From a virus (Duplodnaviria; Caudoviricetes): a stretch of DNA of 61,550 bases. Below are positions 3,712 through 58,551 of the stretch, piece after piece. The stretch is from positions 1 to 61,550 of the IMG/VR virus record IMGVR_UViG_3300027833_001904; one strand, given 5' to 3'. Under the pieces are notes generated by a model. It did not search any database, was not told the origin of the DNA, and was given only the letters and a program-made list of their open reading frames with translations. Both the position numbers and the translations under genes were made by a program. How positions within the stretch are numbered: position 1 is the stretch's first letter; each line of letters begins with the position of its first letter.

Positions 3712-3720
3712 TTAAAACTA

Positions 3721-3750
3721 GGCCCTCATCTTAAACGGTGAGGGCTTTTT
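3721..3750 (+). terminator. Intrinsic terminator
   Basis: GCCCTCATC-TTAAAC-GGTGAGGGC followed by TTTTT. Confidence 0.85.
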
Positions 3751-23364: not shown

Positions 23365-23817
23365 ATGAACTTAAACGACAATAGCAGTTATACGGTCACT
23401 GCACCAGATTTATTCCTACAATTAAACGGATTAAATGTTTTAATTACAAGCACAAACAAAGAGTTAATTGATAACTTCAAATTAATATTTGAAAAATTTA
23501 TTAGATCAAGCGTAGTTTTTAATGTGCAACAACGAGTAACAAAACCAGATAGTTTGCCGTGGATGTGGCACGTTAGCAGAACATGTGAATATATGTTAGT
23601 TGACTTAGATACATGTGCATGGGAAGATATAATGGCTGCGTTATTAAAGCGAATGGATGATAATCATTCTGTAATTTTTTATAGTGAAAAGAAAGTAAGA
23701 CGAGAAGCAATAAAATTGATTAACGCAACCAGCAACTATATTATAATTAACAACTTAGAAGAATTAAATAAATTCTTAGACATAGATACTCAATACCCAG
23801 GCATGCCAGATGAGTAA
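23365..23817 (+). CDS. Hypothetical protein
   Basis: 150 aa coupled ORF upstream of clpX. Confidence 0.7.
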   Translation: MNLNDNSSYTVTAPDLFLQLNGLNVLITSTNKELIDNFKLIFEKFIRSSVVFNVQQRVTKPDSLPWMWHVSRTCEYMLVDLDTCAWEDIMAALLKRMDDNHSVIFYSEKKVRREAIKLINATSNYIIINNLEELNKFLDIDTQYPGMPDE

Positions 23818-25009
23818 TCCATACTGTAATTTTTGCGGTAAAAATAAACATCAAACCAAAAAACTATTAGCTGGAAATGATGGAACACACATTTGTGATG
23901 GATGTGTGGATCTTTGTCATGACATATTAATTAAAGAAAAAGCTAAAGCATCAGCTCAACCAGAGTCTGTAACACGCCTTAAGCTACCTACACCGTTAGA
24001 ATTACACGAACACTTAAATAGATTCGTCATTGGGCAAAACACCGCTAAAAAGACGCTTAGTGTTGCAGTATACAACCATTACAAGCGGATTAAGAACACT
24101 ACACAAGTAAAGTTACAAAAGAATAATGTGCTTATAGCAGGTCCTACTGGAACAGGCAAAACACTTATTGCTTCTACATTGGCATCATATTTAGATGTGC
24201 CATTTGTAGTTACAGATGCAACAACAATAACTGAAAGCGGATATGCAGGTGATGACACAGAAGTATTACTAGACAAACTATTCCAAGCTGCTGATTATGA
24301 TGTAGAAAAAGCACAGTTGGGTATTATATACGTAGACGAGATTGATAAAAAAGCAAAACGAAATGACATGGTAAGTTTAAGTCGTGATGTGTCAGGCGAA
24401 GGTGTGCAACAAAGTTTGCTAAAGCTAATGGAAGGCACAGTAGTAACAGTTCCAAACAAACCTCAAGCCAATCCAGAAAAAGTAGATATAGATACTACTA
24501 ACATATTGTTTATAGTAGGCGGAGCATTTATAGGATTATCAGATCTTGTAAAACAACGTATAGGCCAAAGTAAAATAGGCTTTAATGATAACAAACAGGA
24601 ACAATTAGATAATTGGGAAATGCATTTACAAACACGTGATCTAGTTCAGTATGGACTTATTCCAGAATTTGTAGGAAGATTACCTAGTGTTAATGTTTTA
24701 CACGAATTAACCAAAGAAGAACTAGTGAAAATACTTACAGAACCACAAGATTCAATAATAGATCAAATAAAAGTGCTTTTTTCACTTGACAAAATACAAA
24801 TAGAGTTTAATATAAAAGCATTAGAGCAAATTGCCTCTATTGCAATAGAACAAGACCTCGGTGCAAGAGGATTAAGAAAGATACTGGATTCGGCACTTGT
24901 GGAAACACAATACCAGTTACCACAACTAAGAGAAAGCGGAGTGAAAAAAATTATTATAACAGATGAAACTATTGTCAATGGCCATCCACCGTTAATGATA
25001 AAAGGGTAA
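23810..25009 (+). CDS. clpX: Clp protease ATP-binding subunit ClpX
   Basis: CNFCGK...ICDGC zinc domain, GPTGTGKT, GYAG pore loop, RDVSGEGVQQ, IGF loop, GARGL. Confidence 0.96.
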   Translation: MSNPYCNFCGKNKHQTKKLLAGNDGTHICDGCVDLCHDILIKEKAKASAQPESVTRLKLPTPLELHEHLNRFVIGQNTAKKTLSVAVYNHYKRIKNTTQVKLQKNNVLIAGPTGTGKTLIASTLASYLDVPFVVTDATTITESGYAGDDTEVLLDKLFQAADYDVEKAQLGIIYVDEIDKKAKRNDMVSLSRDVSGEGVQQSLLKLMEGTVVTVPNKPQANPEKVDIDTTNILFIVGGAFIGLSDLVKQRIGQSKIGFNDNKQEQLDNWEMHLQTRDLVQYGLIPEFVGRLPSVNVLHELTKEELVKILTEPQDSIIDQIKVLFSLDKIQIEFNIKALEQIASIAIEQDLGARGLRKILDSALVETQYQLPQLRESGVKKIIITDETIVNGHPPLMIKG

Positions 25010-28456: not shown

Positions 28457-28695
28457 TGTTACATACAGTAGAATCATTATTAGAAAAAATTAATGCAATG
28501 CACTCAAAAGCATTATTACTACACAGACTTCGTAATCAATATTCAGAAGCATCAGGAAAAACATACGACCATGCGGAGTGTCAAGCCCTTATCGATGATA
28601 TTCAATACATGGCTAAACTTATTTCAAACGATAAGCAAGGCGATGAGATTAAAACCGAAATGGAATACACGAAATTTTTAAAGGATGAAAAATGA
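28456..28695 (+). CDS. Hypothetical protein
   Basis: Coupled ORF with GGAGG RBS. Confidence 0.7.
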
Positions 28696-29813
28696 GAATA
28701 GACCAGGATATTAAACTAGACTACAGTGATGTGTTAATTCGCCCAAAACGTAGCACACTTAAAAGTCGTAGTCAAGTAAGACTTGAACGCAAGTTTAAAT
28801 TTAGAAATAGCAGGCACGAATACGAAGGTATTCCTATTATGGCTGCTAACATGGACGGTGTTGGAACATTTGCACTAGCAGATACACTAGCCCAACAAAG
28901 TATGTTTACATGTTTAGTAAAAACATATTCAGTAGAAAAACTTGTAGAATACTTTGATAAAGGTCTTCAAATCAGAACAGAACATGTTGCTATGAGTATT
29001 GGCACAAGTTGGGAAGACTTTGACAAATTAACAAAAGTTTGTAAATTGAGTAGTGGATTAAAGTATGTATGCATGGATATTGCAAATGGTTATAGTGATC
29101 ACTTTGCACAGCATGTAAGGAAAGTGCGTGATGCATTTCCTAATTTAATAATTATAGCAGGTAATGTAGTTACCGGAGAAATGACAGAGGAGTTAATACT
29201 TGCAGGAGCAGATATCATTAAAGTTGGAATCGGACCAGGAAGCGTCTGCACAACAAGAATTCAAACAGGAGTCGGGTATCCGCAACTTAGTGCAGTCATT
29301 GAGTGTGCAGATGCGGCACATGGGCTTGGCGGACATATTATCGCTGATGGGGGCTGTAACTCTAGTGGTGATGTGGCTAAAGCATTTGCTGGCGGCGCCG
29401 ATTTTGTAATGCTAGGCGGTATGCTTGCAGGACACAATGAAGGTGGTGGCGATGTTATTACAAAATATTATGAAACAACTGAACTTGTATACGAAATAGG
29501 TTCGCACTTAGATAAGCATACACGTAAGATTGAAACAAAACAATTTGTAGCGTTCTACGGTATGAGTTCAGATGCAGCAAATACAAAACACTTTGGTGGA
29601 CTAAAAGACTATCGTGCAAGCGAAGGTCGAGAAGTATTAGTTCCATACCGAGGAGATGTTAAAGACACAATTCAAAGTATATTGGGTGGTATTAGATCAA
29701 CTTGCACATATTCAGGTGCAATGAAACTCAAACAACTTAGTAAATGCACTACGTTCGTTCGTGTTAACAATCAGTTTAACAGAACATACGAAAGCACAAC
29801 AACCAAAATATAA
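28692..29813 (+). CDS. guaC: GMP reductase
   Basis: [51 protein letters not shown]. Confidence 0.95.
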
Positions 29814-31017: not shown

Positions 31018-31054
31018 AAAAGTCGTATACTGTTCCCTCGGTATGCGGCTTTTT
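31018..31054 (+). terminator. Intrinsic terminator with GTTCCCTC loop
   Basis: AGTCGTATACT-GTTCCCTC-GGTATGCGGCT followed by TTTT. Confidence 0.8.
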
Positions 31055-34572: not shown

Positions 34573-35787
34573 ATGACATCTCCAACATACATGGATTATT
34601 CAGCAACAACACCGGTAGACCACCGAGTTGCAGAGAAAATGGCAGAGTGCCTATCAATAGAAGGCACCTTTGGAAACCCGGCATCTCGCTCACATTATTA
34701 TGGGTGGCAAGCCGAAGCGGCAGTAGACAAAGCACGTAAACAAGTAGCAGATTTAGTAGGAGCAGATCCTAAAGAAATAGTATGGACATCTGGTGCTACC
34801 GAATCAAACAACTTAGCACTTAAAGGTATTGCACACTTTTATAAAAAGCGTGGCAATCATATTATTACGCTAAAAACAGAACACAAGGCAATACTAGATA
34901 CTTGCCGTCAACTAGAGCGTGAAGGATTTGAAGTTACATACATGAGTCCATTACCTAGTGGACTATTAGACATTGAAGAATTAAAAGCTACAATACGAGA
35001 AGATACAATACTAGCTTCATTTATGCATGTTAATAATGAGATTGGTGTTATACAAGACTTACAAGTTATTGGTGATATTTGCAGAGAACGTAAAGTATTC
35101 TTTCATGTTGATGCATCACAATCAGTTGGTAAACTTCCAATAAACTTAACAGAACTTCCAGTTGACTTAATGAGTTTTTCAGCACACAAGATATATGGGC
35201 CAAAAGGAATGGGAGCTCTTTATGTATCACGCAAGCCACGAGTTAGACTTGAGGCGCAGATGCATGGTGGTGGACACGAACGTGGAATGCGATCAGGCAC
35301 ATTAGCTACACATCAAATTGTTGGCATGGGCGAAGCATTTGCAATTGCACAAGAAATGATGGCAGACGAAGAAGTTAGAACACGTGGACTTAGAGATAGG
35401 TTATACGCTGGCTTCTCTGACATGGAAGAAGTAAAAGTAAATGGCGATATGGAACAACGTATTGGCAATAACTTAAATATTAGTTTTAATCATGTAGAAG
35501 GCGAATCGCTAATGATGGCAATAAACGGCATTGCAGTATCATCAGGATCAGCATGCACATCAGCAAGTTTAGAACCTTCTTACGTTCTTAGAGCAATAGG
35601 ATTACCAGATGAATTATCTGCTAGTTCAATACGTTTTAGTGTAGGACGCTTTACAACAGAAAAAGATGTTGACAATGCAATTACACTTGTTAGACAAAAA
35701 GTAGAAAAATTAAGAGAACTATCGCCACTATGGGATATGTATAAAGATGGAATTGATTTAAACACAGTAGTATGGGCTGCTCATTAG
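34573..35787 (+). CDS. iscS: Cysteine desulfurase
   Basis: [27 protein letters not shown] (PLP lysine), SSGSACTS. Confidence 0.97.
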
Positions 35788-35816: not shown

Positions 35817-36227
35817 ATGGCATATTCAGACAAAGTAATGGATCATTATGAGAACCCACGTAATGTAGGTAAGTTTGATCCCAAAGAAAGTAATATTGGA
35901 ACAGGAATGGTTGGAGCTCCTGCTTGCGGTGATGTAATGAGATTACAAATTCAAGTAGAAGATGGTATTATTACTGATGCTAAATTTAAAACATATGGTT
36001 GTGGTAGTGCAATTGCAAGTAGCAGTTTACTAACTACAATGGTAAAAGGTATGAATTTAGAAGAAGCTGGTGCAATCCAAAACATGGACCTTGCAGATGA
36101 ACTTGCATTACCTCCAGTTAAGATTCACTGTAGTGTATTAGCCGAAGATGCAATTAAATCTGCAATAGCAGATTATCAAGGCAAAAACCCAGTGCCAGAA
36201 GGCGCCAATTATTTTGAAATTAAATAA
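35817..36227 (+). CDS. iscU: Fe-S cluster scaffold protein
   Basis: MAYSDKVMDHYENPRNVG, APACGD, GCGSA, LPPVKIHC. Confidence 0.97.
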   Translation: MAYSDKVMDHYENPRNVGKFDPKESNIGTGMVGAPACGDVMRLQIQVEDGIITDAKFKTYGCGSAIASSSLLTTMVKGMNLEEAGAIQNMDLADELALPPVKIHCSVLAEDAIKSAIADYQGKNPVPEGANYFEIK

Positions 36228-36230
36228 AGG

Positions 36231-36261
36231 TTGACATTTTATACACTTTCGTGTATAAATA
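36231..36261 (+). promoter_or_regulatory. Overlapping sigma70 and late promoter for tmRNA
   Basis: TTGACA-17nt-TATAAA, where the -10 is also a perfect TATAAATA. Confidence 0.75.
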
Positions 36262-36266
36262 ACATT

Positions 36267-36560
36267 GTAACGTTGAAGCGATTTGACGACTATACTGGAC
36301 CTCGGGGCAGTACCGAGCAGCTCCACCAAAAACATACTAGTGTCCAGTTAAGTTTGGAACACATCTGATAAAGTGGCTAGTATGTTTTTGATGGGGCTGA
36401 ACTAGGATCGACAGGTAGGATAGATGAGTGGAGTTACCGGGATGTAAGCGCCGTTACCGCGAACAAACTTTATAATTGCAAATAACAATTATGCGCCAGA
36501 AATGGCATTAGCAGCCTAGAGTTGCTATGAGGTAACTATACCTTATTACCCAAACTAGTA
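36267..36560 (+). ncRNA. ssrA: Circularly permuted (two-piece) tmRNA, tag ANNNYAPEMALAA
   Basis: Acceptor piece with T-arm and CAGCTCCACCA (ends 36328) precedes GGGGCTGAA 5' end (36393); tag frame 36478-36519; outer ends approximate. Confidence 0.92.
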
Positions 36561-36561
36561 G

Positions 36562-36588
36562 AAAGGGTGTCTTAGGGCACCCTTTTTT
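36562..36588 (+). terminator. Intrinsic terminator after tmRNA
   Basis: AAAGGGTGTC-TTAG-GGCACCCTTTTTT. Confidence 0.88.
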
Positions 36589-36606
36589 GAGGCAATAAAT
36601 ACTAGC

Positions 36607-37650
36607 ATGATATATTCCAAGAAGCCATTAATATTACAATTAGAATTAAGCAGTATGTGTAATGCATTATGCTTAGGCTGTCAGCGTGTCGATCCAAATA
36701 CATTTAACAGTGTGCATCCAGATATCCCTAAAAAGGAAATGATATCAGTTGATACAATACACAAATTAATGAATAGCCCAGCAATGGCTAGTATAGAGGA
36801 AATACAATTTTGTGGAACAATAGACGAGCCACTAATGCATCCAAATTTTATGGAAATACTAGATGTTATGTATGAAGCGAATCCAGAACTAGACATAGAA
36901 ATACATACAAATGCAAGTTTAAGGACAACTGAATTTTGGAGAGACCTAGCACATAAGTTATCCAAGTTTAAGAAACATAAAGTATTATTTGGCATAGATG
37001 GGTTAGTTGACACACATGAAATATATAGACAGCAAACAAATTTTGATCTCATTATTAGAAATGCAGTGCATTTTATACGTGCAGGCGGGAATGCACAATG
37101 GCAGTATATTATCTTTCCATGGAATAAACATCAAGTAGAAGAAGCACGTAACATGAGTAATAGTTTAGGATTTAAGGAATTTAAAACTCGTAATGATAGA
37201 AGTGGAGTAAGCGAAGAAGGACTTGACTTAGTAAGAGAAATACAACAAAATCCAACAACTAGTAAAGAAGGAACAGATGTGAGTATATACAATGGGTATG
37301 CGATTAGTTGTATGAATCACGATGAAGACATGTATCATGTTTCATACGATGGCAGACTTTGGCCTTGTTGCTATTTTGGTAATGTAAAGTATATGGGTCC
37401 AAAATTGTATAACGAATTTAAGCAGAGAATATTTGGAGTGTATGGCGAAGATTTTAATTTACTTACCAAACACACAGTAGAAGAAATATTAGATTCAGAT
37501 TTATATAAAAACGATTTAGTAGAGTCTTGGAATAATCCAATAGGTTGCGGCAGTAAAGATAAAGTAAATCGTTGTGCAATGTCGTGTAGTGTAAAAGCAC
37601 TTGAAACCAGACCAATTGCAACAGCACATAAAATTACAGAAAACTTTTAA
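36607..37650 (+). CDS. Radical SAM protein with SPASM/twitch domain (paralogue 4)
   Basis: CNALCLGC, HTNAS, FGIDG, YDGRLWPCC, RCAMSC. Confidence 0.9.
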   Translation: MIYSKKPLILQLELSSMCNALCLGCQRVDPNTFNSVHPDIPKKEMISVDTIHKLMNSPAMASIEEIQFCGTIDEPLMHPNFMEILDVMYEANPELDIEIHTNASLRTTEFWRDLAHKLSKFKKHKVLFGIDGLVDTHEIYRQQTNFDLIIRNAVHFIRAGGNAQWQYIIFPWNKHQVEEARNMSNSLGFKEFKTRNDRSGVSEEGLDLVREIQQNPTTSKEGTDVSIYNGYAISCMNHDEDMYHVSYDGRLWPCCYFGNVKYMGPKLYNEFKQRIFGVYGEDFNLLTKHTVEEILDSDLYKNDLVESWNNPIGCGSKDKVNRCAMSCSVKALETRPIATAHKITENF

Positions 37651-37704: not shown

Positions 37705-37779
37705 TGGAAAGTAGCATAACGGTAATGCATCACTTTTTGGTAGTGCAGATTATAGGTTCGAATCCTATCTTTCCAGCCA
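37705..37779 (+). tRNA. tRNA-Gln(UUG)
   Basis: TGGAAAG/CTTTCCA acceptor; CACT-TTTTGGT-AGTG; GCCA end. Confidence 0.9.
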
Positions 37780-37783
37780 CACT

Positions 37784-37858
37784 GCACCCTTCGTCTATCG
37801 GTTAGGACACACGGTTTTCATCCGTGCAAGAGGAGTTCGATTCTCCTAGGGTGTACCA
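37784..37858 (+). tRNA. tRNA-Glu(UUC)
   Basis: CACGG-TTTTCAT-CCGTG; GTTCGATTC; CCA. Confidence 0.94.
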
Positions 37859-37865
37859 ACATTAT

Positions 37866-37941
37866 TCCTTCTTAGCTCAGTTGGTAGAGCAATTGACTGT
37901 TAATCAATTTGTCGCTGGTTCGAGCCCAGCAGAAGGAGCCA
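37866..37941 (+). tRNA. tRNA-Asn(GUU)
   Basis: TCCTTCT/AGAAGGA; ATTGA-CTGTTAA-TCAAT; GCCA. Confidence 0.96.
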
Positions 37942-37948
37942 ATAATAC

Positions 37949-38038
37949 GGAAGATTGGCTGAGTGGTCGAAAGCACCGGTTTACTAAACCGACGAAGGGG
38001 TAACTCTTCCTAGGGTTCGAATCCCTAATCTTCCGCCA
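37949..38038 (+). tRNA. tRNA-Ser(ACU), class II
   Basis: GGAAGAT/ATCTTCC; CGGT-TTACTAA-ACCG; long variable arm; G73; CCA. Confidence 0.9.
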
Positions 38039-38040
38039 AA

Positions 38041-38204
38041 GACGTGTTGAGGTTGCTCCTCGACTAGTATGGGTTAGCAAGTCCCATATGATGAGAAGTG
38101 GTGTCGCAATCACAACAAAAGGCTCGATGCAAGTATGCCGGCAAGTGTTTGTCGTTAGTGTGGATAGGCGGAGCGAAAGCGTTGAGAACCTCCCACGCAT
38201 ACAC
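38041..38204 (+). ncRNA. Candidate structured ncRNA inside the tRNA array
   Basis: Ends pair (GAGGTT/AACCTC, CTCGAC/GTTGAG, CGTG/CACG); internal hairpins; GNRA loop. Confidence 0.6.
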
Positions 38205-38211
38205 ATTAATT

Positions 38212-38285
38212 GCGGGTGTTGTGTAATGGTAAGACCTTAGGTTTCCAACCTAAAGATAGGAGTTCGATTCTCCTCACCCGCTCCA
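38212..38285 (+). tRNA. tRNA-Gly(UCC)
   Basis: GCGGGTG/CACCCGC; TTAGG-TTTCCAA-CCTAA; U73-CCA. Confidence 0.94.
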
Positions 38286-38307
38286 ACAACAAGTAACATA
38301 TGAAAGG

Positions 38308-38336
38308 TTGACACCTTGTAGTTTTTATGTTATTGT
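38308..38336 (+). promoter_or_regulatory. Sigma70-type promoter with extended -10
   Basis: TTGACA-17nt-(TGn)TATTGT. Confidence 0.6.
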
Positions 38337-38383
38337 AATTGTAGTAATGCTCTTCGGGTAAATAAAAACATAAGGAATTTAAA

Positions 38384-38443
38384 ATGTCAAGATCGATACA
38401 ACAATATATATTAAATTGGTGCCTGCATAGGGGTATGTCTTGA
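38384..38443 (+). CDS. Putative leader peptide MSRSIQQYILNWCLHRGMS
   Basis: TAAGGA RBS; 19 codons; lies between a promoter and the terminator preceding tRNA-Trp. Confidence 0.55.
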   Translation: MSRSIQQYILNWCLHRGMS

Positions 38444-38473
38444 TGTGACTTTTTAACAAAAGTTATTTTTAGC

Positions 38474-38507
38474 AAGCCCTGTAGTAGAAATATTACAGGG
38501 CTTTTTT
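38474..38507 (+). terminator. Intrinsic terminator (candidate attenuator) abutting tRNA-Trp
   Basis: AAGCCCTGTAGTA-GAAA-TATTACAGGGC-TTTTTT. Confidence 0.85.
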
Positions 38508-38582
38508 ATGGGTGTGGTGTTAACGGCAACACGTTGGTCTCCAAAACCAAAGTTTAGGGTTCGAATCCCTACACCTATGCCA
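38508..38582 (+). tRNA. tRNA-Trp(CCA)
   Basis: ATGGGTG/CACCTAT; TTGGT-CTCCAAA-ACCAA; GCCA. Confidence 0.93.
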
Positions 38583-38586
38583 ATTC

Positions 38587-38661
38587 GGGACCGTAGCTTA
38601 GTGGTAGAGCAAGACGCTCATAACGTCCAGGTCGTTGGTTCGATCCCAACCGGTCCCACCA
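38587..38661 (+). tRNA. tRNA with CAU anticodon (Ile2-lysidine or elongator Met; not initiator)
   Basis: GGGACCG/CGGTCCC fully paired; GACG-CTCATAA-CGTC; no GGG/CCC initiator stem. Confidence 0.9.
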
Positions 38662-38721
38662 AATAAACACTTGACAAATGCTTTATAAGTAGTATAATAA
38701 GTGCATGTTAGGAGAATATCA

Positions 38722-41608: not shown

Positions 41609-41639
41609 AAAAAGGGCAGTGTAAAAACTGCCCTTTTTT
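41609..41639. terminator. Bidirectional terminator
   Basis: AAAAAGGGCAGT-GTAAAA-ACTGCCCTTTTTT between convergent genes. Confidence 0.88.
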
Positions 41640-47065: not shown

Positions 47066-47729
47066 CCCTTGGGATGTTTTAGGCATCCACCCAGATTCAA
47101 ATGTTGCTGAAGTAAAGAAAGCCTACAAAAGTCTTTCTATGTTACATCATCCAGATAAAGGCGGCAAGATTGCAGACTGGCTAGCAATAGCAGATGCATA
47201 CGATTCCATTACATCAAAGAATTACATTCCCATAGTCAAATCTACCAACACACAATTGCTTAATCTTAAACTTAGTTTAAAGCAGCAAATACTAGGTGTT
47301 GATGATATCATTGCAATAGAAAATGATGATGACGAAATATACATGAACGTTAAGATACCACCTGGAGCTGCATCGGGTGATAAGATACAAGTTACGCAAG
47401 ATAATAAAAAATATATAATAAATATTAAAGATAAAGCACATTCGGTCTTTACAAGACAAGGTTCTTCGCTTATAATGTATAAGAAGGTATCAGTTATAGA
47501 AGCACTAAAGAGAACACCAATACTGATAGAAGGTCCAACAGAAGAATTTATCGAAGTAGACTTGCCAGAAGAAATACAAACAGGAACTATACTAACATTG
47601 GCAAATTATGGTTTATACGATAAGAAGAAACGAAAACGAGGGAATTTAAAAATACATATACATGTAGACTTCCCTATTATTACAGACGCTAATTTACAAG
47701 AATTTATAACAAGGTTAAAAAATGACTGA
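47046..47729 (+). CDS. DnaJ/CbpA-like co-chaperone
   Basis: J-domain with HPDKGG; C-terminal DnaJ_C-like region. Confidence 0.88.
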   Translation: MKKKQNNPWDVLGIHPDSNVAEVKKAYKSLSMLHHPDKGGKIADWLAIADAYDSITSKNYIPIVKSTNTQLLNLKLSLKQQILGVDDIIAIENDDDEIYMNVKIPPGAASGDKIQVTQDNKKYIINIKDKAHSVFTRQGSSLIMYKKVSVIEALKRTPILIEGPTEEFIEVDLPEEIQTGTILTLANYGLYDKKKRKRGNLKIHIHVDFPIITDANLQEFITRLKND

Positions 47730-50031
47730 TATTGAAAAAATTATTATTACAGCAATAGATCTAGCAAAAAGATTTAAACACGAGTATGTTACAATTGAAC
47801 ACCTAACAGCCGTTATATTAGACGACGAAGAAGTTCGTAGCATGTGTTTTGATATACAAGCAGACTTCGAAGGTATACAAGTAGCACTTATACATTACCT
47901 TCAACATGACTGTGATGAAATTGCAGTGGCAAACGGAGAAGAACCAGATCCTAAAAAGACACAAATGCTTGAAAGAGTATTTAATAGAGCATTAACACAA
48001 GCATTGTTTCAAGGTAAAAAAGCTATTGATCAGTTAGATCTGGTATTAAGTATATTGGGTGAGGATAAAAGCACAAGTTGTTTCTTTGCAGAGAGTTTAG
48101 GATTATCAAAGTCAAAAGTATTAGCATGGATGCAGGAAAGTTTTGCAGAGAACTTTAAAACAGATTACGAACAACAGCAAGCACACGAAGAAGCATACTA
48201 TACGCAGACTAAAAAGAATCAAATGGGTCCACAAACACATGTAGAGGTGTTGCAACAGTTTTGCACTAACCTATGTGAACAACATGCAGATTTTGAAGAT
48301 GTAATTGGTCGCAGAGAAGAATTAAAAGACCTTGTGCAAACAATTGCACGTAAGAAAAAATCAAACGCTATTTTAGTAGGAGCCAGTGGTGTTGGTAAAA
48401 CTGCTATTGTGCAAGGGTTATCAAAACTTATTGTAGAAGGACATGTTCCTGATATTATCAAAGGCACCACAGTGTGGGAACTTGATATGACGAAGTTAAT
48501 TGCAGGCACAAAGTATAGAGGCGACTTTGAAGAACGCATGAAACTGCTAGGCGATGCATTAATGAAATTAGACGATATTATATTATTCATTGATGAGATA
48601 CACACAGTAATTGGTGCAGGTAGCACTAGTGGTAGCTTAGACGCAGGTAACATGCTCAAACCAGCATTAAGTTCAGGCAAGCTGAAAGTTATTGGTGCAA
48701 CAACAGATGAAGAATATCGTAAGATATTTGAAAAAGAAAGTGCGTTAGCACGTAGATTTACAAAGTTAAATGTAAAAGAACCAACAGTGCAAGAAGCTAA
48801 AGAAGTCTTACGTAATACACTAGACCATTACGAAGCATTTCATGAAGTAGATATTGATATTGCATCGGCAGATTTAGCAGTAGAATTATCAGCACAGTAT
48901 ATCTTTAACAAGAAACTTCCAGACAAAGCATTTGATATTATTGATAGAGCATGTGCATTTAATAGAATATTACCAGAAGAAGAACGTGTAACCACTATTG
49001 GCATAAATGAAATTAGAGCTGAGGTTTCTAGACTAACTGGCATACCAAAAGAACACTTAGGCACAGCTGCAGAAGAACAATCAATTAAAAAACATACAGA
49101 AGTAAAAGCATTTTTAGAGAACACAGTATTTGGACAACAAGAAGCCATTGATAAAGTATCAAATGCAATTACAGTAAGTTTAGCAGGCCTAAAAGATCCA
49201 AACAAACCAGTTGCAAGTTACTTGCTTACAGGACCAACAGGTGTAGGTAAAACAGAACTTGCTAGACGTCTATCACAAGCAATGGGCATGTCAATGGTGC
49301 GTTATGATATGGCTGAATATCAAGAACGTCATAGTGTAGCAAAACTAATAGGCTCACCTCCAGGCTATGTAGGACATGGTGATGGTAAAGCAGGTGATGG
49401 TTTGCTAATTACACAATTAGAAGATAATCCAAATTGTGTATTGTTACTAGACGAAGTAGAAAAAGGACACCCAGATATTATGAGTGTTATGCTAAGTTTA
49501 CTAGATGAAGGTATAATTACAAGTAGCTCAGGCAAAAAAGTCAGTGCAAAAAATGCCATCATTATAATGACCAGTAACTTAGGTGCAAAGGATGCCTCTA
49601 TTAAGAGCATCGGATTTAACGAAGAAACATACAACGATAGTGCGGTAACAGAAGCAATTAATAACTTCTTTGCACCAGAGTTTAGAAATAGACTTGATGG
49701 TGTTATAAGATTTAATTCACTACAACCTGAAAATATGCAACGTATTGTTATAAAGTTTTTAAGACAATTAGAAGGATATGTTGAGGGCAGACACATTAAA
49801 ATTCATTGGAATAAAAATCTTTTAGCTATGTTACAAGATAAAGGATACAGTGCTACAATGGGTGCTCGTCCACTTGCACGTCTCATTAACGAACGTGTTA
49901 AACTACCACTAGCAAATTATATGATGGAAAATTTAGAATCAAAAGAGCTTGATATATCGTATGATGAGGTTACAGATAAAGTTAACATTCTGCCATCTAA
50001 AGTGATAGCAGCCAATGAACAACCAGCATAA
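47722..50031 (+). CDS. clpA: Clp protease ATP-binding subunit ClpA
   Basis: HEYVTIEHL N-domain; two AAA modules (GVGKT twice); GTKYRGDFEER; PPGYVG; IGF loop; no ClpB M-domain. Confidence 0.93.
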   Translation: MTDIEKIIITAIDLAKRFKHEYVTIEHLTAVILDDEEVRSMCFDIQADFEGIQVALIHYLQHDCDEIAVANGEEPDPKKTQMLERVFNRALTQALFQGKKAIDQLDLVLSILGEDKSTSCFFAESLGLSKSKVLAWMQESFAENFKTDYEQQQAHEEAYYTQTKKNQMGPQTHVEVLQQFCTNLCEQHADFEDVIGRREELKDLVQTIARKKKSNAILVGASGVGKTAIVQGLSKLIVEGHVPDIIKGTTVWELDMTKLIAGTKYRGDFEERMKLLGDALMKLDDIILFIDEIHTVIGAGSTSGSLDAGNMLKPALSSGKLKVIGATTDEEYRKIFEKESALARRFTKLNVKEPTVQEAKEVLRNTLDHYEAFHEVDIDIASADLAVELSAQYIFNKKLPDKAFDIIDRACAFNRILPEEERVTTIGINEIRAEVSRLTGIPKEHLGTAAEEQSIKKHTEVKAFLENTVFGQQEAIDKVSNAITVSLAGLKDPNKPVASYLLTGPTGVGKTELARRLSQAMGMSMVRYDMAEYQERHSVAKLIGSPPGYVGHGDGKAGDGLLITQLEDNPNCVLLLDEVEKGHPDIMSVMLSLLDEGIITSSSGKKVSAKNAIIIMTSNLGAKDASIKSIGFNEETYNDSAVTEAINNFFAPEFRNRLDGVIRFNSLQPENMQRIVIKFLRQLEGYVEGRHIKIHWNKNLLAMLQDKGYSATMGARPLARLINERVKLPLANYMMENLESKELDISYDEVTDKVNILPSKVIAANEQPA

Positions 50032-57207: not shown

Positions 57208-58551
57208 ATGAGCAAAGCATTGATACTTCTTTCTAGCAATAAGAACGAAGTTAAAAAGTTAGGTCTGGCAAAACATGCCGCACTAATTGACAAAGACGTA
57301 GATGTTGCATTTGCAAACAAAGACTACGACTACATTACACTAATTAATAAAGCACCAACAACACCACAAGAAGCACGTGACATTGGTGGGAATATGTTTA
57401 AGAAATATAAATCAAAAGCAACAGAAATTGTTTTTAATCTTCCTAGACTAGCTGATGTTAAAGAAGGTGCAGCATTGGCATCATACGAATTTACCAAATA
57501 TAAAACAAAGCCTGAAGAAAACACACTACAAGTAGAAGATGCAGGCATTAGTGCAAGTGTTCATTTTGCACGTGATTTAGTTACAGAGCCAGGCAATGCA
57601 TTATATCCTGAAGAATACGCACACCGTATTAATGAAACACTCACACCACATGGTGTTAGAGTGCGTGTAATTTATCAACGTGAACTAGAACGCATCGGCA
57701 TGGATATGCTGTTAAGTGTTGGACTAGGTAGTGAGAATAACAGTGCTGTGGTTATAATGGAATGGATGCATGGACTTGAAGGTGAACAACCAATTGCATT
57801 AGTAGGTAAAGGTGTTACATTTGACACAGGTGGTATTAGTTTAAAACCAGGTCGTAACATGGGCGATATGAAATATGACATGGGCGGTAGTGCCGCAGTT
57901 GTAGGAGCCATGCATGCTATTGCTGATAAAAAACTAAAGAAAAACGTAGTTGGTATTGTAGGACTAGTAGAGAACATGCCAGATGGTAAAGCAATTAAAC
58001 CAGGTGATGTTGTTAGATCACTAAGTGGACAATATGTTGAAAACTTAAACACTGATGCAGAAGGCAGACTTGTGCTTGGTGATATTTTAACATATGTGCA
58101 AAGTGAATACAATCCAGGTGCTATTATTGACCTTGCTACACTAACAGGAGCCATTGTTGCAACACTAGGCAATGAAATGGCAGGATTGTTTACTAACAGT
58201 GATGGATTAGAAAAAGCAATTATTGAAAATGGTGAGCTAGGTGGAGAAGGTTACTTCCGTATGCCAATGGGTAAAAACTGGGCTAAGATGATCGAATCAC
58301 CTATCGCTGATTTCCAAAACATTGGTGGTCCATATGGTGGCTCAACTACTGCCGCTGAATTCTTATACAAGTTTGTAGACAAGAAAACAGCATGGGCTCA
58401 TTTAGATATTGCAGGTATGTGTTGGTCTAAAAGTGGAAATGCAACAACACCAAAAGGCGCAGTCGGCTTCGGCGTAAAAACATTATTCAACTTTGTAGAC
58501 AACACAGAGAGTTATCAGTGGTTTGCAGTAGAAGAAAAAATGTCATACTAA
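57208..58551 (+). CDS. pepA: Leucyl aminopeptidase (M17)
   Basis: VGKGVTFDTGG, MKYDMGG, NTDAEGRL, DLATLTG, HLDIAG; promoter 57150-57178. Confidence 0.95.
   Translation: MSKALILLSSNKNEVKKLGLAKHAALIDKDVDVAFANKDYDYITLINKAPTTPQEARDIGGNMFKKYKSKATEIVFNLPRLADVKEGAALASYEFTKYKTKPEENTLQVEDAGISASVHFARDLVTEPGNALYPEEYAHRINETLTPHGVRVRVIYQRELERIGMDMLLSVGLGSENNSAVVIMEWMHGLEGEQPIALVGKGVTFDTGGISLKPGRNMGDMKYDMGGSAAVVGAMHAIADKKLKKNVVGIVGLVENMPDGKAIKPGDVVRSLSGQYVENLNTDAEGRLVLGDILTYVQSEYNPGAIIDLATLTGAIVATLGNEMAGLFTNSDGLEKAIIENGELGGEGYFRMPMGKNWAKMIESPIADFQNIGGPYGGSTTAAEFLYKFVDKKTAWAHLDIAGMCWSKSGNATTPKGAVGFGVKTLFNFVDNTESYQWFAVEEKMSY

What the first reader, a model, noticed from the sequence alone, without database searches (positions are those of the whole stretch)
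38308..38661. Leader-peptide attenuator apparently controlling tRNA genes
Seen, in order: promoter, TAAGGA RBS, 19-codon ORF MSRSIQQYILNWCLHRGMS, a small hairpin (38446-38465), and a strong terminator whose U-tract ends on the base before tRNA-Trp. tRNA-CAU follows, and there is no room for another promoter. The leader has TGG (38417), two ATA codons and an internal ATG, which are the codons read by the downstream tRNAs. ATAGGG (38427-38432) can pair with CCCTGT in the terminator's 5' arm. Known: ribosome-stalling attenuation controls amino-acid operons. Inference: a sensor that produces replacement tRNA-Trp/Ile2 only when the host tRNA is depleted or cleaved, which would be an unusual anti-defence feedback circuit. 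Caveats: there is only one Trp codon, the antiterminator is short, and a ribosome stalled at TGG could mask it, so the ATA codons may be the real sensors.
Basis: partly seen in the sequence, partly recalled or inferred. Interest (0 to 1): 0.82.

Follow-up and report, generated by a model that had tools for sequence, protein, structure and literature searches.

The report
Trp-codon leader gating phage tRNA-Trp
A marine giant-phage fragment carries a short conserved reading frame and a strong terminator directly in front of its tRNA-Trp gene, folded like the classic trp-operon attenuator, so the phage may make this tRNA only when ribosomes stall for lack of it.

Summary
Promoter, SD, 19-codon ORF (38384-38443), small hairpin, strong terminator (38474-38503, T-run to 38507) and tRNA-Trp starting at 38508 are all present.

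The module recurs in four sequence types: window, L020, L019-type and the more diverged L051. It always lies directly upstream of tRNA-Trp with no promoter between.

- The ORF stays open in 4 of 4 types despite +1/-1, -3 and +6 indels, while the peptide is poorly conserved.
- The ORF's 3' end can pair with the base of the terminator's 5' arm. The energy gain is -10.7 to -16.6 kcal/mol, close to E. coli trpL (-11.0) and above six other terminators of the window (-0.1 to -4.0).
- A masked-ribosome scan places the single conserved UGG at the 3' edge of the stall positions that still allow this antiterminator, as in trpL.
- Of 131 tRNA calls in 59 held sequences, only these tRNA-Trp genes (plus one weak case) have a terminator directly upstream.

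Best reading: a trp-type leader-peptide attenuator gating tRNA-Trp, confidence about 0.5. Weak points are one Trp codon, no compensatory change in the antiterminator, no SD in one type and no experiment. The ATA-sensor idea is rejected and the anti-defence purpose is untested.

The parts
38308..38336 (+). Sigma-70-type promoter TTGACA-17-TATTGT (TGn extended -10). It drives the leader in the window.
   Evidence: 10 of 12 matches, TG present. A homologous promoter follows tRNA-Gly in L051. It is absent in front of the leader in L020 and the L019-type, where transcription comes from further upstream.
38371..38376 (+). Shine-Dalgarno TAAGGA, 7 nt before the ATG.
   Evidence: AAGGA is present in window, L020 and L051. 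It is absent in the L019-type, where the 15-nt segment holding it is missing.
38384..38443 (+). Leader ORF of 19 codons plus TGA: MSRSIQQYILNWCLHRGMS*.
   Evidence: frame 0 is open in 4 of 4 sequence types, and frames 1 and 2 each carry a stop in 4 of 4. The indels (+1/-1, -3, +6) keep the conserved blocks in frame.
38417..38419 (+). The single Trp codon UGG (codon 12), proposed sensor codon.
   Evidence: Invariant in 4 of 4 types. It is the last A-site codon that still allows the antiterminator in window and L019, and is followed by two more permissive codons in L051.
38384..38424 (+). Region 1: the 5' strand of closing helix P1 (38384-38393), a small inner hairpin, and the 5' strand of helix B (38419-38424).
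   Evidence: Helix 1 is 97.7% paired with 6 pairs changed on one side. Helix 3 is 95.8% paired.
38430..38446 (+). Region 2: GGGGUAUGUCUUGAUGU, the last codons plus the stop. It pairs either with region 1 or with region 3.
   Evidence: pairing with region 1. (pairing with the base of the terminator 5' arm).
38445..38466 (+). Small hairpin hp2, the tip of the composite antiterminator stem-loop.
   Evidence: -5.2 kcal/mol, z -2.46. Kept in the L019-type with a 3-nt loop deletion and a G.U to A-U change. Weaker in L051 (-2.1).
38468..38486 (+). Region 3: linker plus terminator 5' arm. GCCCU at 38476-38480 is the toggle shared by antiterminator and terminator.
   Evidence: The lower 5' arm AAGCCCU is invariant in 4 of 4 types, while the upper stem covaries.
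38474..38507 (+). Intrinsic terminator: 13-bp stem, GAAA loop and a U6 tract ending at 38507.
   Evidence: Five pairs are changed on both sides in L051, all in the upper stem.
38508..38582 (+). tRNA-Trp (CCA), the first gene behind the terminator.
   Evidence: It follows the leader in 4 of 4 types at 0 or 9 nt.
38587..38661 (+). tRNA-CAU (probably Ile2), the second gene behind the terminator.
   Evidence: Present in window, L020 and L051, absent in the L019-type. The best E. coli matches are annotated tRNA-Ile.
38671..38698 (+). Next promoter (12 of 12 matches). It marks the end of the gated unit.
   Evidence: An equivalent promoter follows the tRNAs in L019, L020 and L051.

Best explanation
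This is a ribosome-dependent (leader-peptide) transcription attenuator of the trp-operon type, but the genes it gates are phage tRNA genes: tRNA-Trp always, then tRNA-CAU and, in L051, tRNA-Pro.

Proposed working (inferred):
- Transcription from the upstream promoter makes an 18-20-codon leader.
- If the leader is not translated, its 3' end (region 2, 38430-38446) pairs back onto its 5' part (region 1). The terminator (regions 3:4) then forms and RNA polymerase stops at the U-tract, one base before tRNA-Trp.
- If a ribosome reads through to the TGA, it covers region 2, with the same outcome.
- If the ribosome stalls with UGG in its A site because charged tRNA-Trp is short, region 1 is covered and region 2 is free. 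Region 2 then pairs with the base of the terminator's 5' arm (GGGGU:GCCCU plus extensions, with hp2 at the tip). The terminator cannot close, and polymerase runs into tRNA-Trp.
- The result would be a feedback loop that supplies tRNA-Trp on demand.

Shown: the parts, their conservation, the open frame, alternative pairings above chance, and a geometry like that of trpL. Inferred: translation of the leader, stalling at UGG, regulated read-through, and the physiological signal.
For: 1. Four sequence types carry the module directly upstream of tRNA-Trp, in different upstream contexts. These are an own promoter (window), protein ORFs (L020), tRNA-Glu (L002/L018/L019), and tRNA-Thr plus a spacer (L051).
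2. Frame 0 is open in 4 of 4 types and the other two frames are closed in 4 of 4. Indels of +1/-1, -3 and +6 keep CAA CAA, UGG UGC and AGG GGU xUG UCU UGA in frame. The peptide keeps only QQ, WC and RG[ML]S. This is the pattern expected when the act of translation matters rather than the product.
3. Antiterminator: adding the terminator 5' arm to the RNA left free by a UGG-stalled ribosome gains energy as follows.
   - Window: -10.7 kcal/mol; 2.7% of 300 shuffles do as well.
   - L019: -10.7; 5.3% of shuffles.
   - L051: -16.6; 0 of 300 shuffles.
   - E. coli trpL control: -11.0; 0 of 300.
   - Six other + strand terminators of the window: -0.1 to -4.0; 36-87% of shuffles.
   In L051 the antiterminator state (-22.3) lies within 1.7 kcal/mol of the terminator state.
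4. Eight antiterminator pairs are kept in 4 of 4 types. L051 changes two of them on one side and keeps both pairs. It also turns the window's A x A mismatch into a U-A pair.
5. Codon-by-codon masking: the antiterminator stays possible up to UGG in window and L019, and up to UGG+2 in L051. It is lost beyond that and at the stop. trpL behaves the same way, up to one codon after its second UGG.
6. The untranslated fold (region 1:2) is the same in all four types, with z -1.2 to -2.9. On the structure-fitted alignment 98.5% of cells pair, against 33-48% when partners are slid. Five compensatory pairs lie in the upper terminator stem, while the lower 5' arm stays invariant.
7. Among 131 tRNA calls in 59 held sequences (overlapping loci included), a terminator within 25 nt upstream was found only for these tRNA-Trp genes, plus one weak hairpin (-8.4) before a Bacillus-phage tRNA-Gln.
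8. The segment from TGG to the terminator end is 90-93% identical between window and L019. That compares with 79% for the neighbouring gene and 83% for tRNA-Trp itself.
Against: - There is only one Trp codon. Classical amino-acid attenuators have tandem or enriched regulatory codons; E. coli trpL has two.
- No antiterminator pair shows a change on both sides (0 of 17 predicted pairs). All four types share GGGGU and GCCCU, so the key toggle is invariant and carries little information.
- In window, L020 and L019 the antiterminator is 6.7-9.7 kcal/mol weaker than the terminator state, so it needs kinetic trapping.
- Two earlier, cruder tests on the window were not significant. The truncated fold gave z -0.88, with 39 of 200 shuffles as good. 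In the whole-ORF shuffle, 13% of 300 did as well.
- The L019-type has no SD. Its nearest purine-rich stretch is 12 nt from the ATG.
- UGG conservation could be due to RNA structure, because it sits in or next to conserved helices.
- Relatives and other phages carry tRNA-Trp without any leader: L044, L054 and Bacillus phage QCM8.
- Two other + strand terminators of the window, at 31020 and 36563, are also followed by a gene with no promoter of at least 10 of 12 matches. Read-through is therefore part of this phage's normal layout.
- There are only four sequence types, three of them close to each other. The pair counts come from an alignment fitted to the structure.
- There are no expression data.
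Confidence: 0.5

Rival explanations
1. Constitutive layout with no sensing. The small ORF (a micro-protein gene) or small RNA is simply the last unit of an upstream transcription unit and ends in its own terminator. tRNA-Trp (with or without tRNA-CAU and tRNA-Pro) was inserted in the neutral gap between that terminator and the next promoter. It is made at a low, fixed level by leaky read-through.
For: - The phage's usual grammar is genes, then terminator, then promoter: the terminators at 3720, 16976 and 60017 are each followed by a promoter.
- Two other terminators are followed by genes with no promoter of at least 10 of 12 matches.
- tRNA content behind the terminator varies from 1 to 3 tRNAs.
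- tRNA-Trp exists without a leader in L044, L054 and QCM8.
- There is only one Trp codon, and about one in five random 19-codon ORFs would hold one (my estimate).
- A contig of RNA library X6 runs across the terminator, 37741-38651. DNA carry-over cannot be excluded.
Against: - It does not explain complementarity between the ORF's 3' end and the terminator base at trpL level, which is absent at six other terminators.
- It does not explain why the frame is kept through four indels while the peptide drifts.
- It does not explain why the lower 5' arm is invariant while the upper stem covaries.
- It does not explain why, among 131 tRNA calls, only this tRNA sits directly behind a terminator.
Confidence: 0.25
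2. A translation-coupled attenuator that is not Trp-specific. The same alternative structures report where the leading ribosome is, in general. Inputs could be overall translation speed, any slow codon in positions 2-12, or the stage of infection. The terminator then acts as a timing or translation-capacity gate for the tRNAs behind it.
For: - In the masking scan every stall from codon 2 to UGG leaves the antiterminator possible.
- The permissive part of the leader is full of codons read by tRNAs that the phage encodes: CAA CAA, AAU, AUA and UUA.
- CAA CAA is invariant in 4 of 4 types.
- Up to three different tRNAs lie behind the gate.
Against: - Stalls at early codons leave helix B free to hold region 2.
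- UGG is the only codon at the 3' edge of the permissive window shared by all four types, and tRNA-Trp is the only gene shared downstream.
- AT-rich codons matching phage tRNAs are expected in any ORF of this phage.
Confidence: 0.13
3. A trans-acting or otherwise functional small RNA. A structured RNA of about 125-165 nt ends in a hairpin plus U-tail and is released by termination or by RNase P cleavage at the tRNA 5' end. The ORF would be secondary or dual-function. This would be comparable to the stable small RNAs embedded in the T4 tRNA cluster, or to the attenuator-derived sRNA rnTrpL.
For: - High nucleotide conservation from TGG to the terminator (90-93%).
- A common fold with a closing helix that pairs the start region with the stop region.
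- In the window, RNase P cleavage and termination would give the same 3' end.
- The T4 tRNA cluster transcript also carries species I and II RNAs and an ORF (PMC2330249, passages read).
- rnTrpL is an attenuator RNA that acts in trans (PMC6614838, abstract in the listing).
Against: - No Rfam family matches. Only sub-threshold hits driven by the terminator were found.
- Frame maintenance through indels is not needed for a pure sRNA.
- No target was sought or found.
- This reading does not exclude the attenuator.
Confidence: 0.07

Closest known systems
E. coli trp operon attenuator (trpL leader peptide)
   Same: - A short leader ORF: 14 codons in trpL, 18-20 here.
- Trp codon(s) about two thirds of the way along the ORF.
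- The stop codon lies in or next to region 2.
- A four-segment 1:2 / 2:3 / 3:4 scheme followed by an intrinsic terminator.
- The antiterminator gain is equal in the same test: -11.0 for trpL against -10.7 to -16.6 here.
- The permissive stall window ends at or just after UGG in both.
   Different: - The gated genes here are tRNA genes, not Trp biosynthesis genes.
- The element lies in a phage.
- It has one UGG instead of two.
- No sequence homology was found: there is no Rfam Trp-leader hit at E <= 1.
- The sensed shortage would be answered with more tRNA rather than more amino acid.
   Same: A ribosome-stalling attenuator that controls a component of the decoding machinery for the same amino acid whose codons are in the leader.
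   Different: The target there is an aminoacyl-tRNA synthetase, the leader has several Phe codons, and the system is cellular rather than phage.
T-box riboswitches
   Same: Terminator/antiterminator leaders that respond to the state of one specific tRNA.
   Different: T-box leaders bind uncharged tRNA directly, need no translation, and are about 200-300 nt long with a specifier loop and the T-box motif (from memory). No Rfam T-box match was found at E <= 1. The leader here is only about 125 nt and carries a conserved ORF.
Small RNAs and ORFs embedded in phage tRNA clusters (T4 species I/II RNAs, segB)
   Same: A non-tRNA unit sits inside a tRNA cluster and is co-transcribed with the tRNAs. In T4, one primary transcript of about 1.75 kb is the precursor of eight tRNAs and of species I and II RNAs, and also carries the segB ORF (PMC2330249, passages).
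   Different: In T4 the transcript terminates after the cluster, not in front of one tRNA. No alternative-pairing leader is described in the passages read.
rnTrpL / peTrpL of Sinorhizobium (attenuator-derived sRNA and leader peptide with functions of their own)
   Same: This shows that a terminated Trp-attenuator RNA and its peptide can have further functions in trans (abstracts in the listing: PMC6614838, PMC7968998). The phage's tmRNA is of the alphaproteobacterial two-piece type.
   Different: No homology was tested or seen. That leader controls trpE(G), and its peptide has three Trp residues (recalled).

Membership tests
Ribosome-mediated (leader-peptide) transcription attenuators | A short ORF with a translation start lies upstream of, and close to, an intrinsic terminator. 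| tested here: met
   The ORF is open in 4 of 4 types. SD AAGGA lies 6-8 nt before the ATG in 3 of 4 types and is missing in the L019-type. The stop codon is 30-33 nt before the terminator arm.
Ribosome-mediated (leader-peptide) transcription attenuators | An intrinsic terminator lies between the leader and the regulated gene, with no promoter in between. | tested here: met
   The terminator is -16.7 to -19.7 kcal/mol with z -4.4 to -5.9. The gap to tRNA-Trp is 0 or 9 nt. No promoter-like site of at least 9 of 12 matches lies between them.
Ribosome-mediated (leader-peptide) transcription attenuators | An antiterminator pairing (2:3) is mutually exclusive with the terminator. | tested here: met
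   The gain is -10.7 to -16.6 kcal/mol. The shuffle fractions are 0.027, 0.053 and 0 of 300. The trpL control gives -11.0, and six ordinary terminators give -0.1 to -4.0. Eight pairs are kept in 4 of 4 types, but none has a change on both sides.
Ribosome-mediated (leader-peptide) transcription attenuators | An anti-antiterminator pairing (1:2) forms in untranslated RNA. | tested here: inconclusive
   The same fold appears in all four types, but the z-scores are only -1.2 to -2.9. Pairing is 96-98% on a structure-fitted alignment, with one-sided changes only.
Ribosome-mediated (leader-peptide) transcription attenuators | Regulatory codons are cognate to the controlled function, enriched or tandem, and placed so that a stall frees region 2. 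| tested here: inconclusive
   Placement is met: UGG is the last, or nearly the last, permissive A-site codon. It is cognate to the downstream tRNA-Trp. Enrichment is not met: there is one UGG in 18-20 codons.
Ribosome-mediated (leader-peptide) transcription attenuators | Read-through depends on leader translation and on supply of the cognate charged tRNA. | not testable with these tools
   Only contigs of RNA libraries were available. One bridges the terminator, but it may be DNA.
Rfam Trp leader and other curated leader families (homology) | A match to the family's covariance model. | tested here: not met
   No leader family reaches its gathering score. Only sub-threshold hits were found: SSRC10 at E 0.023, rli38 at 0.56 and SdsR at 0.66 in the window, and PyrR at 0.27 and L10_leader at 0.41 in L051.
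T-box riboswitch | A match to the T-box model, with specifier loop and T-box sequence. | tested here: not met
   No T-box hit at E <= 1 in either Rfam scan.
Stable small RNAs of phage tRNA clusters (T4 species I/II type) | A stable processed RNA accumulates in infected cells. | not testable with these tools
   No raw RNA reads were available, and contigs cannot show RNA ends or levels.

The most novel reading that the evidence does not exclude
The module is a self-regulating tRNA supply. The phage uses one UGG codon in a disposable leader as a live read-out of how well the infected cell decodes Trp codons. It opens transcription into its own tRNA-Trp, and the tRNA-Ile2 and tRNA-Pro behind it, only when that capacity falls. 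The fall could come from the host's single tRNA-Trp being outrun, from host tRNA decay during infection, or from a tRNA-cleaving defence. This would be the first leader-peptide attenuator known to control a tRNA gene, and a demand-driven counter to tRNA depletion.
Probability: 0.2. Interest if true: 0.85.

Novelty: new variant of a known kind. Interest (0 to 1): 0.68.

Why it matters
Why phages carry tRNA genes, and how those genes are controlled, is an old open question. Current ideas are codon supply and escape from tRNA-targeting defences. The papers listed, such as PMC10264068 and PMC11555353, were seen as listing abstracts only.

A leader-peptide attenuator in front of a tRNA gene would show that at least some phage tRNAs are made on demand. 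The trigger would be the very decoding step they serve. It would also extend classical attenuation from amino-acid operons to the tRNA itself.

My six literature searches listed no such case. The element is about 125 nt, self-contained and built on host-type promoter and terminator signals. It can therefore be tested directly in a reporter or in a cell-free system, even though the phage and its host are uncultured.

Tried and rejected
Searches for close relatives
- A megablast of the region against the phage collection found no match.
- A distant blastn matched tRNAs only.

Searches for more homologues
- The 17-mer scan gave 4 stretches, of which 3 were chance.
- The gapped pattern found only L016 in viral contigs.
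- It found L018, L019 and L020 in metagenomes.
- The peptide-degenerate pattern found only L016.
- The terminator 20-mer found only L016.
- The loose pattern in genome contigs gave 13 chance hits, 0 of them next to a tRNA-Trp.
- Relatives of the downstream gene at 47% identity have no tRNAs.
- Covariance model R1, run over 37 sources, found only the four known types. The other hits had E >= 0.11.

Ideas rejected
- ATA codons as sensors: rejected.
- Pairing of leader GCAUAGG with the 3' acceptor strand of tRNA-Trp: 7 bp in the window, not kept in the L019-type. This was by inspection, and I treat it as chance.
- The leader as a decayed tRNA: neither ARAGORN nor the Rfam tRNA model hits it.
- ATAAATAAAAA upstream of the ORF as a phage promoter motif: 12 matches against 12.8 expected.
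- A promoter hidden in the hp2/terminator region: nothing reaches 9 of 12 matches.
- TRAP-like (G/U)AG repeats: not seen by eye, no tool used.

RNA libraries (contigs only)
- X16, X17 and X18 have no contig over 38297-38536. A gap like this proves nothing.
- The X6 contig 37741-38651 bridges the terminator but may be DNA.

Calls that gave no result

Supplementary files of papers were not consulted.
Full report
**What the window is.** The window is a 61,550-base IMG/VR virus record, linear and estimated 17% complete, so it is a fragment of a very large phage. It has 35% G+C and almost all genes on the + strand. Consensus sigma-70-type promoters are frequent: 32 on the + strand with at least 10 of 12 matches, five of them perfect. 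It encodes host-like functions, namely ClpX-like, ClpB-like, IMPDH/GMP reductase, class-V aminotransferase, radical-SAM and M17 aminopeptidase. It also carries a two-piece tmRNA and ten tRNAs. Near-identical DNA occurs in marine metagenomes of 13 studies. No close relative is in the phage collection.

**The observation.**
- Promoter at 38308-38336, and TAAGGA at 38371-76.
- ORF at 38384-38443 (MSRSIQQYILNWCLHRGMS*), with TGG at 38417.
- Hairpin at 38445-66.
- Terminator at 38474-38503, -19.7 kcal/mol, z -5.9, with its T-run ending at 38507.
- tRNA-Trp from 38508 and tRNA-CAU from 38587.
- A perfect promoter at 38671.

No promoter-like site lies between the terminator and the tRNAs.

**Relatives.** Pattern scans and flanking-gene searches found the module in only a narrow clade, as four sequence types.
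- The window.
- L020, a metagenome contig. Its ORF is MSRRIQQSILNWCLHRGMS, it is preceded by protein ORFs, and tRNA-Trp and tRNA-CAU follow.
- L002/L016/L018/L019. The ORF is MLRQIQQKLYWCLYRGMS, it lies directly after tRNA-Glu, has no SD and no tRNA-CAU.
- L051, found through the tRNA-CAU. The ORF is MHKIVQQSFYWCPPEGRGLS. The terminator has a different upper stem. tRNA-Trp, tRNA-CAU and tRNA-Pro follow.

In all four types the order is leader ORF, small hairpin, terminator, tRNA-Trp, with 0 or 9 nt between T-run and tRNA. A strong promoter then follows for the next gene. The window's promoter at 38308 is homologous to the promoter after tRNA-Gly in L051. Other relatives and other phages have tRNA-Trp without the module: L044, L054 and Bacillus phage QCM8.

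**Is the ORF real?** Frame 0 is open in 4 of 4 types, and the other two frames each carry a stop in 4 of 4. Between the types there are four indels. A +1/-1 pair flanks the conserved CAAGAU, and there are also a -3 and a +6. After each one the conserved blocks (CAA CAA; UGG UGC; AGG GGU xUG UCU UGA) are read in the same frame. The peptide itself is poorly conserved. This is what one expects if translation of the frame matters more than the product. Against this, the L019-type lacks the SD.

**RNA structure.** Untranslated, all four RNAs fold the same way. A 10-11-bp helix pairs the start codon and codons 2-4 with the last codon, the stop and the next bases. Inside it lie two small hairpins, one of which (helix B) holds the GGG of region 2. 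Then come hp2 and the terminator.

On the model-fitted alignment 98.5% of cells pair, against 33-48% for slid partners. Five pairs changed on both sides, all in the upper terminator stem. The lower 5' arm AAGCCCU is invariant. That alignment leans towards the structure.

When the 3' arm of the terminator is left out, the 3' end of the ORF pairs with the linker and the base of the 5' arm. The pairing is GGGGU 38430-34 with GCCCU 38476-80, plus UG:CA, CU:AG and GA:UU, with hp2 at the tip. In L051 this helix is 11 + 6 + 6 bp, -22.3 kcal/mol, and only 1.7 kcal/mol above the terminator state.

**Is the alternative pairing more than chance?** Two early tests on the window alone were not significant. 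A sharper test measured the energy gained when the 5' arm is added to the RNA left free by a ribosome with UGG in the A site. It was compared with 300 dinucleotide shuffles of that RNA.

| Sequence | Gain (kcal/mol) | Shuffles doing as well |
|---|---|---|
| Window | -10.7 | 2.7% |
| L019 | -10.7 | 5.3% |
| L051 | -16.6 | 0 of 300 |
| E. coli trpL (positive control, fetched) | -11.0 | 0 of 300 |
| Six other + strand terminators of the window | -0.1 to -4.0 | 36-87% |

The pairing is therefore as strong as in the textbook attenuator and is absent at ordinary terminators of the same phage. No antiterminator pair shows a both-sided change. L051 has two one-sided changes that keep pairs and one change that repairs a mismatch.

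**Geometry.** I masked a ribosome footprint (A site -18 to +12) codon by codon. The antiterminator remains possible up to UGG in window and L019 and up to two codons beyond UGG in L051. It is lost from there to the stop. E. coli trpL behaves the same way, remaining permissive up to one codon after its second UGG.

UGG is thus the one conserved codon at the 3' edge of the permissive window, and tRNA-Trp is the one conserved gene behind the gate.

**Specificity of the layout.** Among 131 tRNA calls in the 59 sequences held (overlapping loci included), a terminator within 25 nt upstream was found only for these tRNA-Trp genes. The exception is one weak hairpin before a Bacillus-phage tRNA-Gln. 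Elsewhere in the window tRNAs sit upstream of terminators: Thr/Ala before 3720 and Leu before 41612.

On the other hand, two other terminators of the window are followed by genes with no promoter of at least 10 of 12 matches. Read-through as such is therefore not unusual in this phage.

**Conservation.** From TGG to the terminator end, window and L019 are 90-93% identical. That compares with 79% for the neighbouring gene, 83% for tRNA-Trp and 73% for the 5' part of the ORF.

**Expression data.** Only contigs of RNA libraries were available. One contig in X6 runs across the terminator from 37741 to 38651, which fits read-through but may be DNA. Nothing more can be said.

**Verdict.** The best-supported reading is a trp-type leader-peptide attenuator that gates phage tRNA-Trp and the tRNAs behind it, with confidence about 0.5.
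- The main rival is a constitutive small ORF or RNA cassette whose terminator is simply leaky (0.25).
- A translation-coupled gate without Trp specificity has 0.13.
- A trans-acting small RNA has 0.07 and does not exclude the attenuator.

Membership in the mechanistic class is met for the ORF, the terminator and the antiterminator. It is inconclusive for the 1:2 pairing and for codon enrichment, and untestable for function. There is no homology to curated Rfam leaders.

**Literature.** Six full-text searches listed no leader-peptide attenuator in front of a tRNA gene. I saw listings and abstracts only, except for passages of PMC2330249. The claim that this is unprecedented rests on those searches and on my recall.

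Noticed in passing
window 36227-36610: A phage-encoded two-piece (permuted) tmRNA of the alphaproteobacterial type, with tag ANNNYAPEMALAA. Relatives L003, L020 and L044 carry one with nearly the same tag. It hints at an alphaproteobacterial host.
   Followed up: partly
window 37949-38038: A tRNA-Ser is called with the unusual anticodon ACT. The same call recurs in relatives L040, L044, L046, L051 and L058, so it is a conserved feature of this phage group and not an error of one contig.
   Followed up: partly
window 38508-38582 versus L020:5615-5688: Between window and L020 the leader's 3' half and the tRNA-CAU are identical, yet tRNA-Trp differs at about ten positions. These include two compensatory anticodon-stem pairs. 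L020's acceptor stem would carry two U.U mismatches. This suggests fast turnover or replacement of the tRNA body inside fixed flanks.
   Followed up: partly
window 38039-38211: A 173-nt spacer between tRNA-Ser and tRNA-Gly, richer in G+C than its surroundings, lies under contigs of RNA libraries X17 and X18. It folds no better than shuffles (z -0.33) and matches no Rfam family.
   Followed up: partly
L051:6701-6800: The stretch between tRNA-Thr and the leader looks tRNA-like, with a T-arm-like GTTCGATTC and an end ...CCAGTACCA. Neither ARAGORN nor the Rfam tRNA model calls it. It may be a decayed or atypical tRNA.
   Followed up: no
window 38587-38661: The tRNA-CAU is not initiator-like, since it has a G1-C72 pair. 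Its best matches in E. coli genomes (76-80% identity, in 416 of 5426 genomes) are annotated tRNA-Ile. It is therefore probably an AUA-reading tRNA-Ile2.
   Followed up: partly
window 41609-41638: A bidirectional terminator lies directly after tRNA-Leu(TAA). A second terminator lies directly after tRNA-Ala, at 3720-3747. Elsewhere in this phage, tRNAs therefore sit in front of terminators, not behind them.
   Followed up: yes
window 23810-25009, 47722-50031, 28692-29813, 34573-35787, 57208-58551: Host-like auxiliary genes are present: ClpX-like and ClpB-like ATPases, IMPDH/GMP reductase, a class-V aminotransferase and an M17 leucyl aminopeptidase.
   Followed up: no
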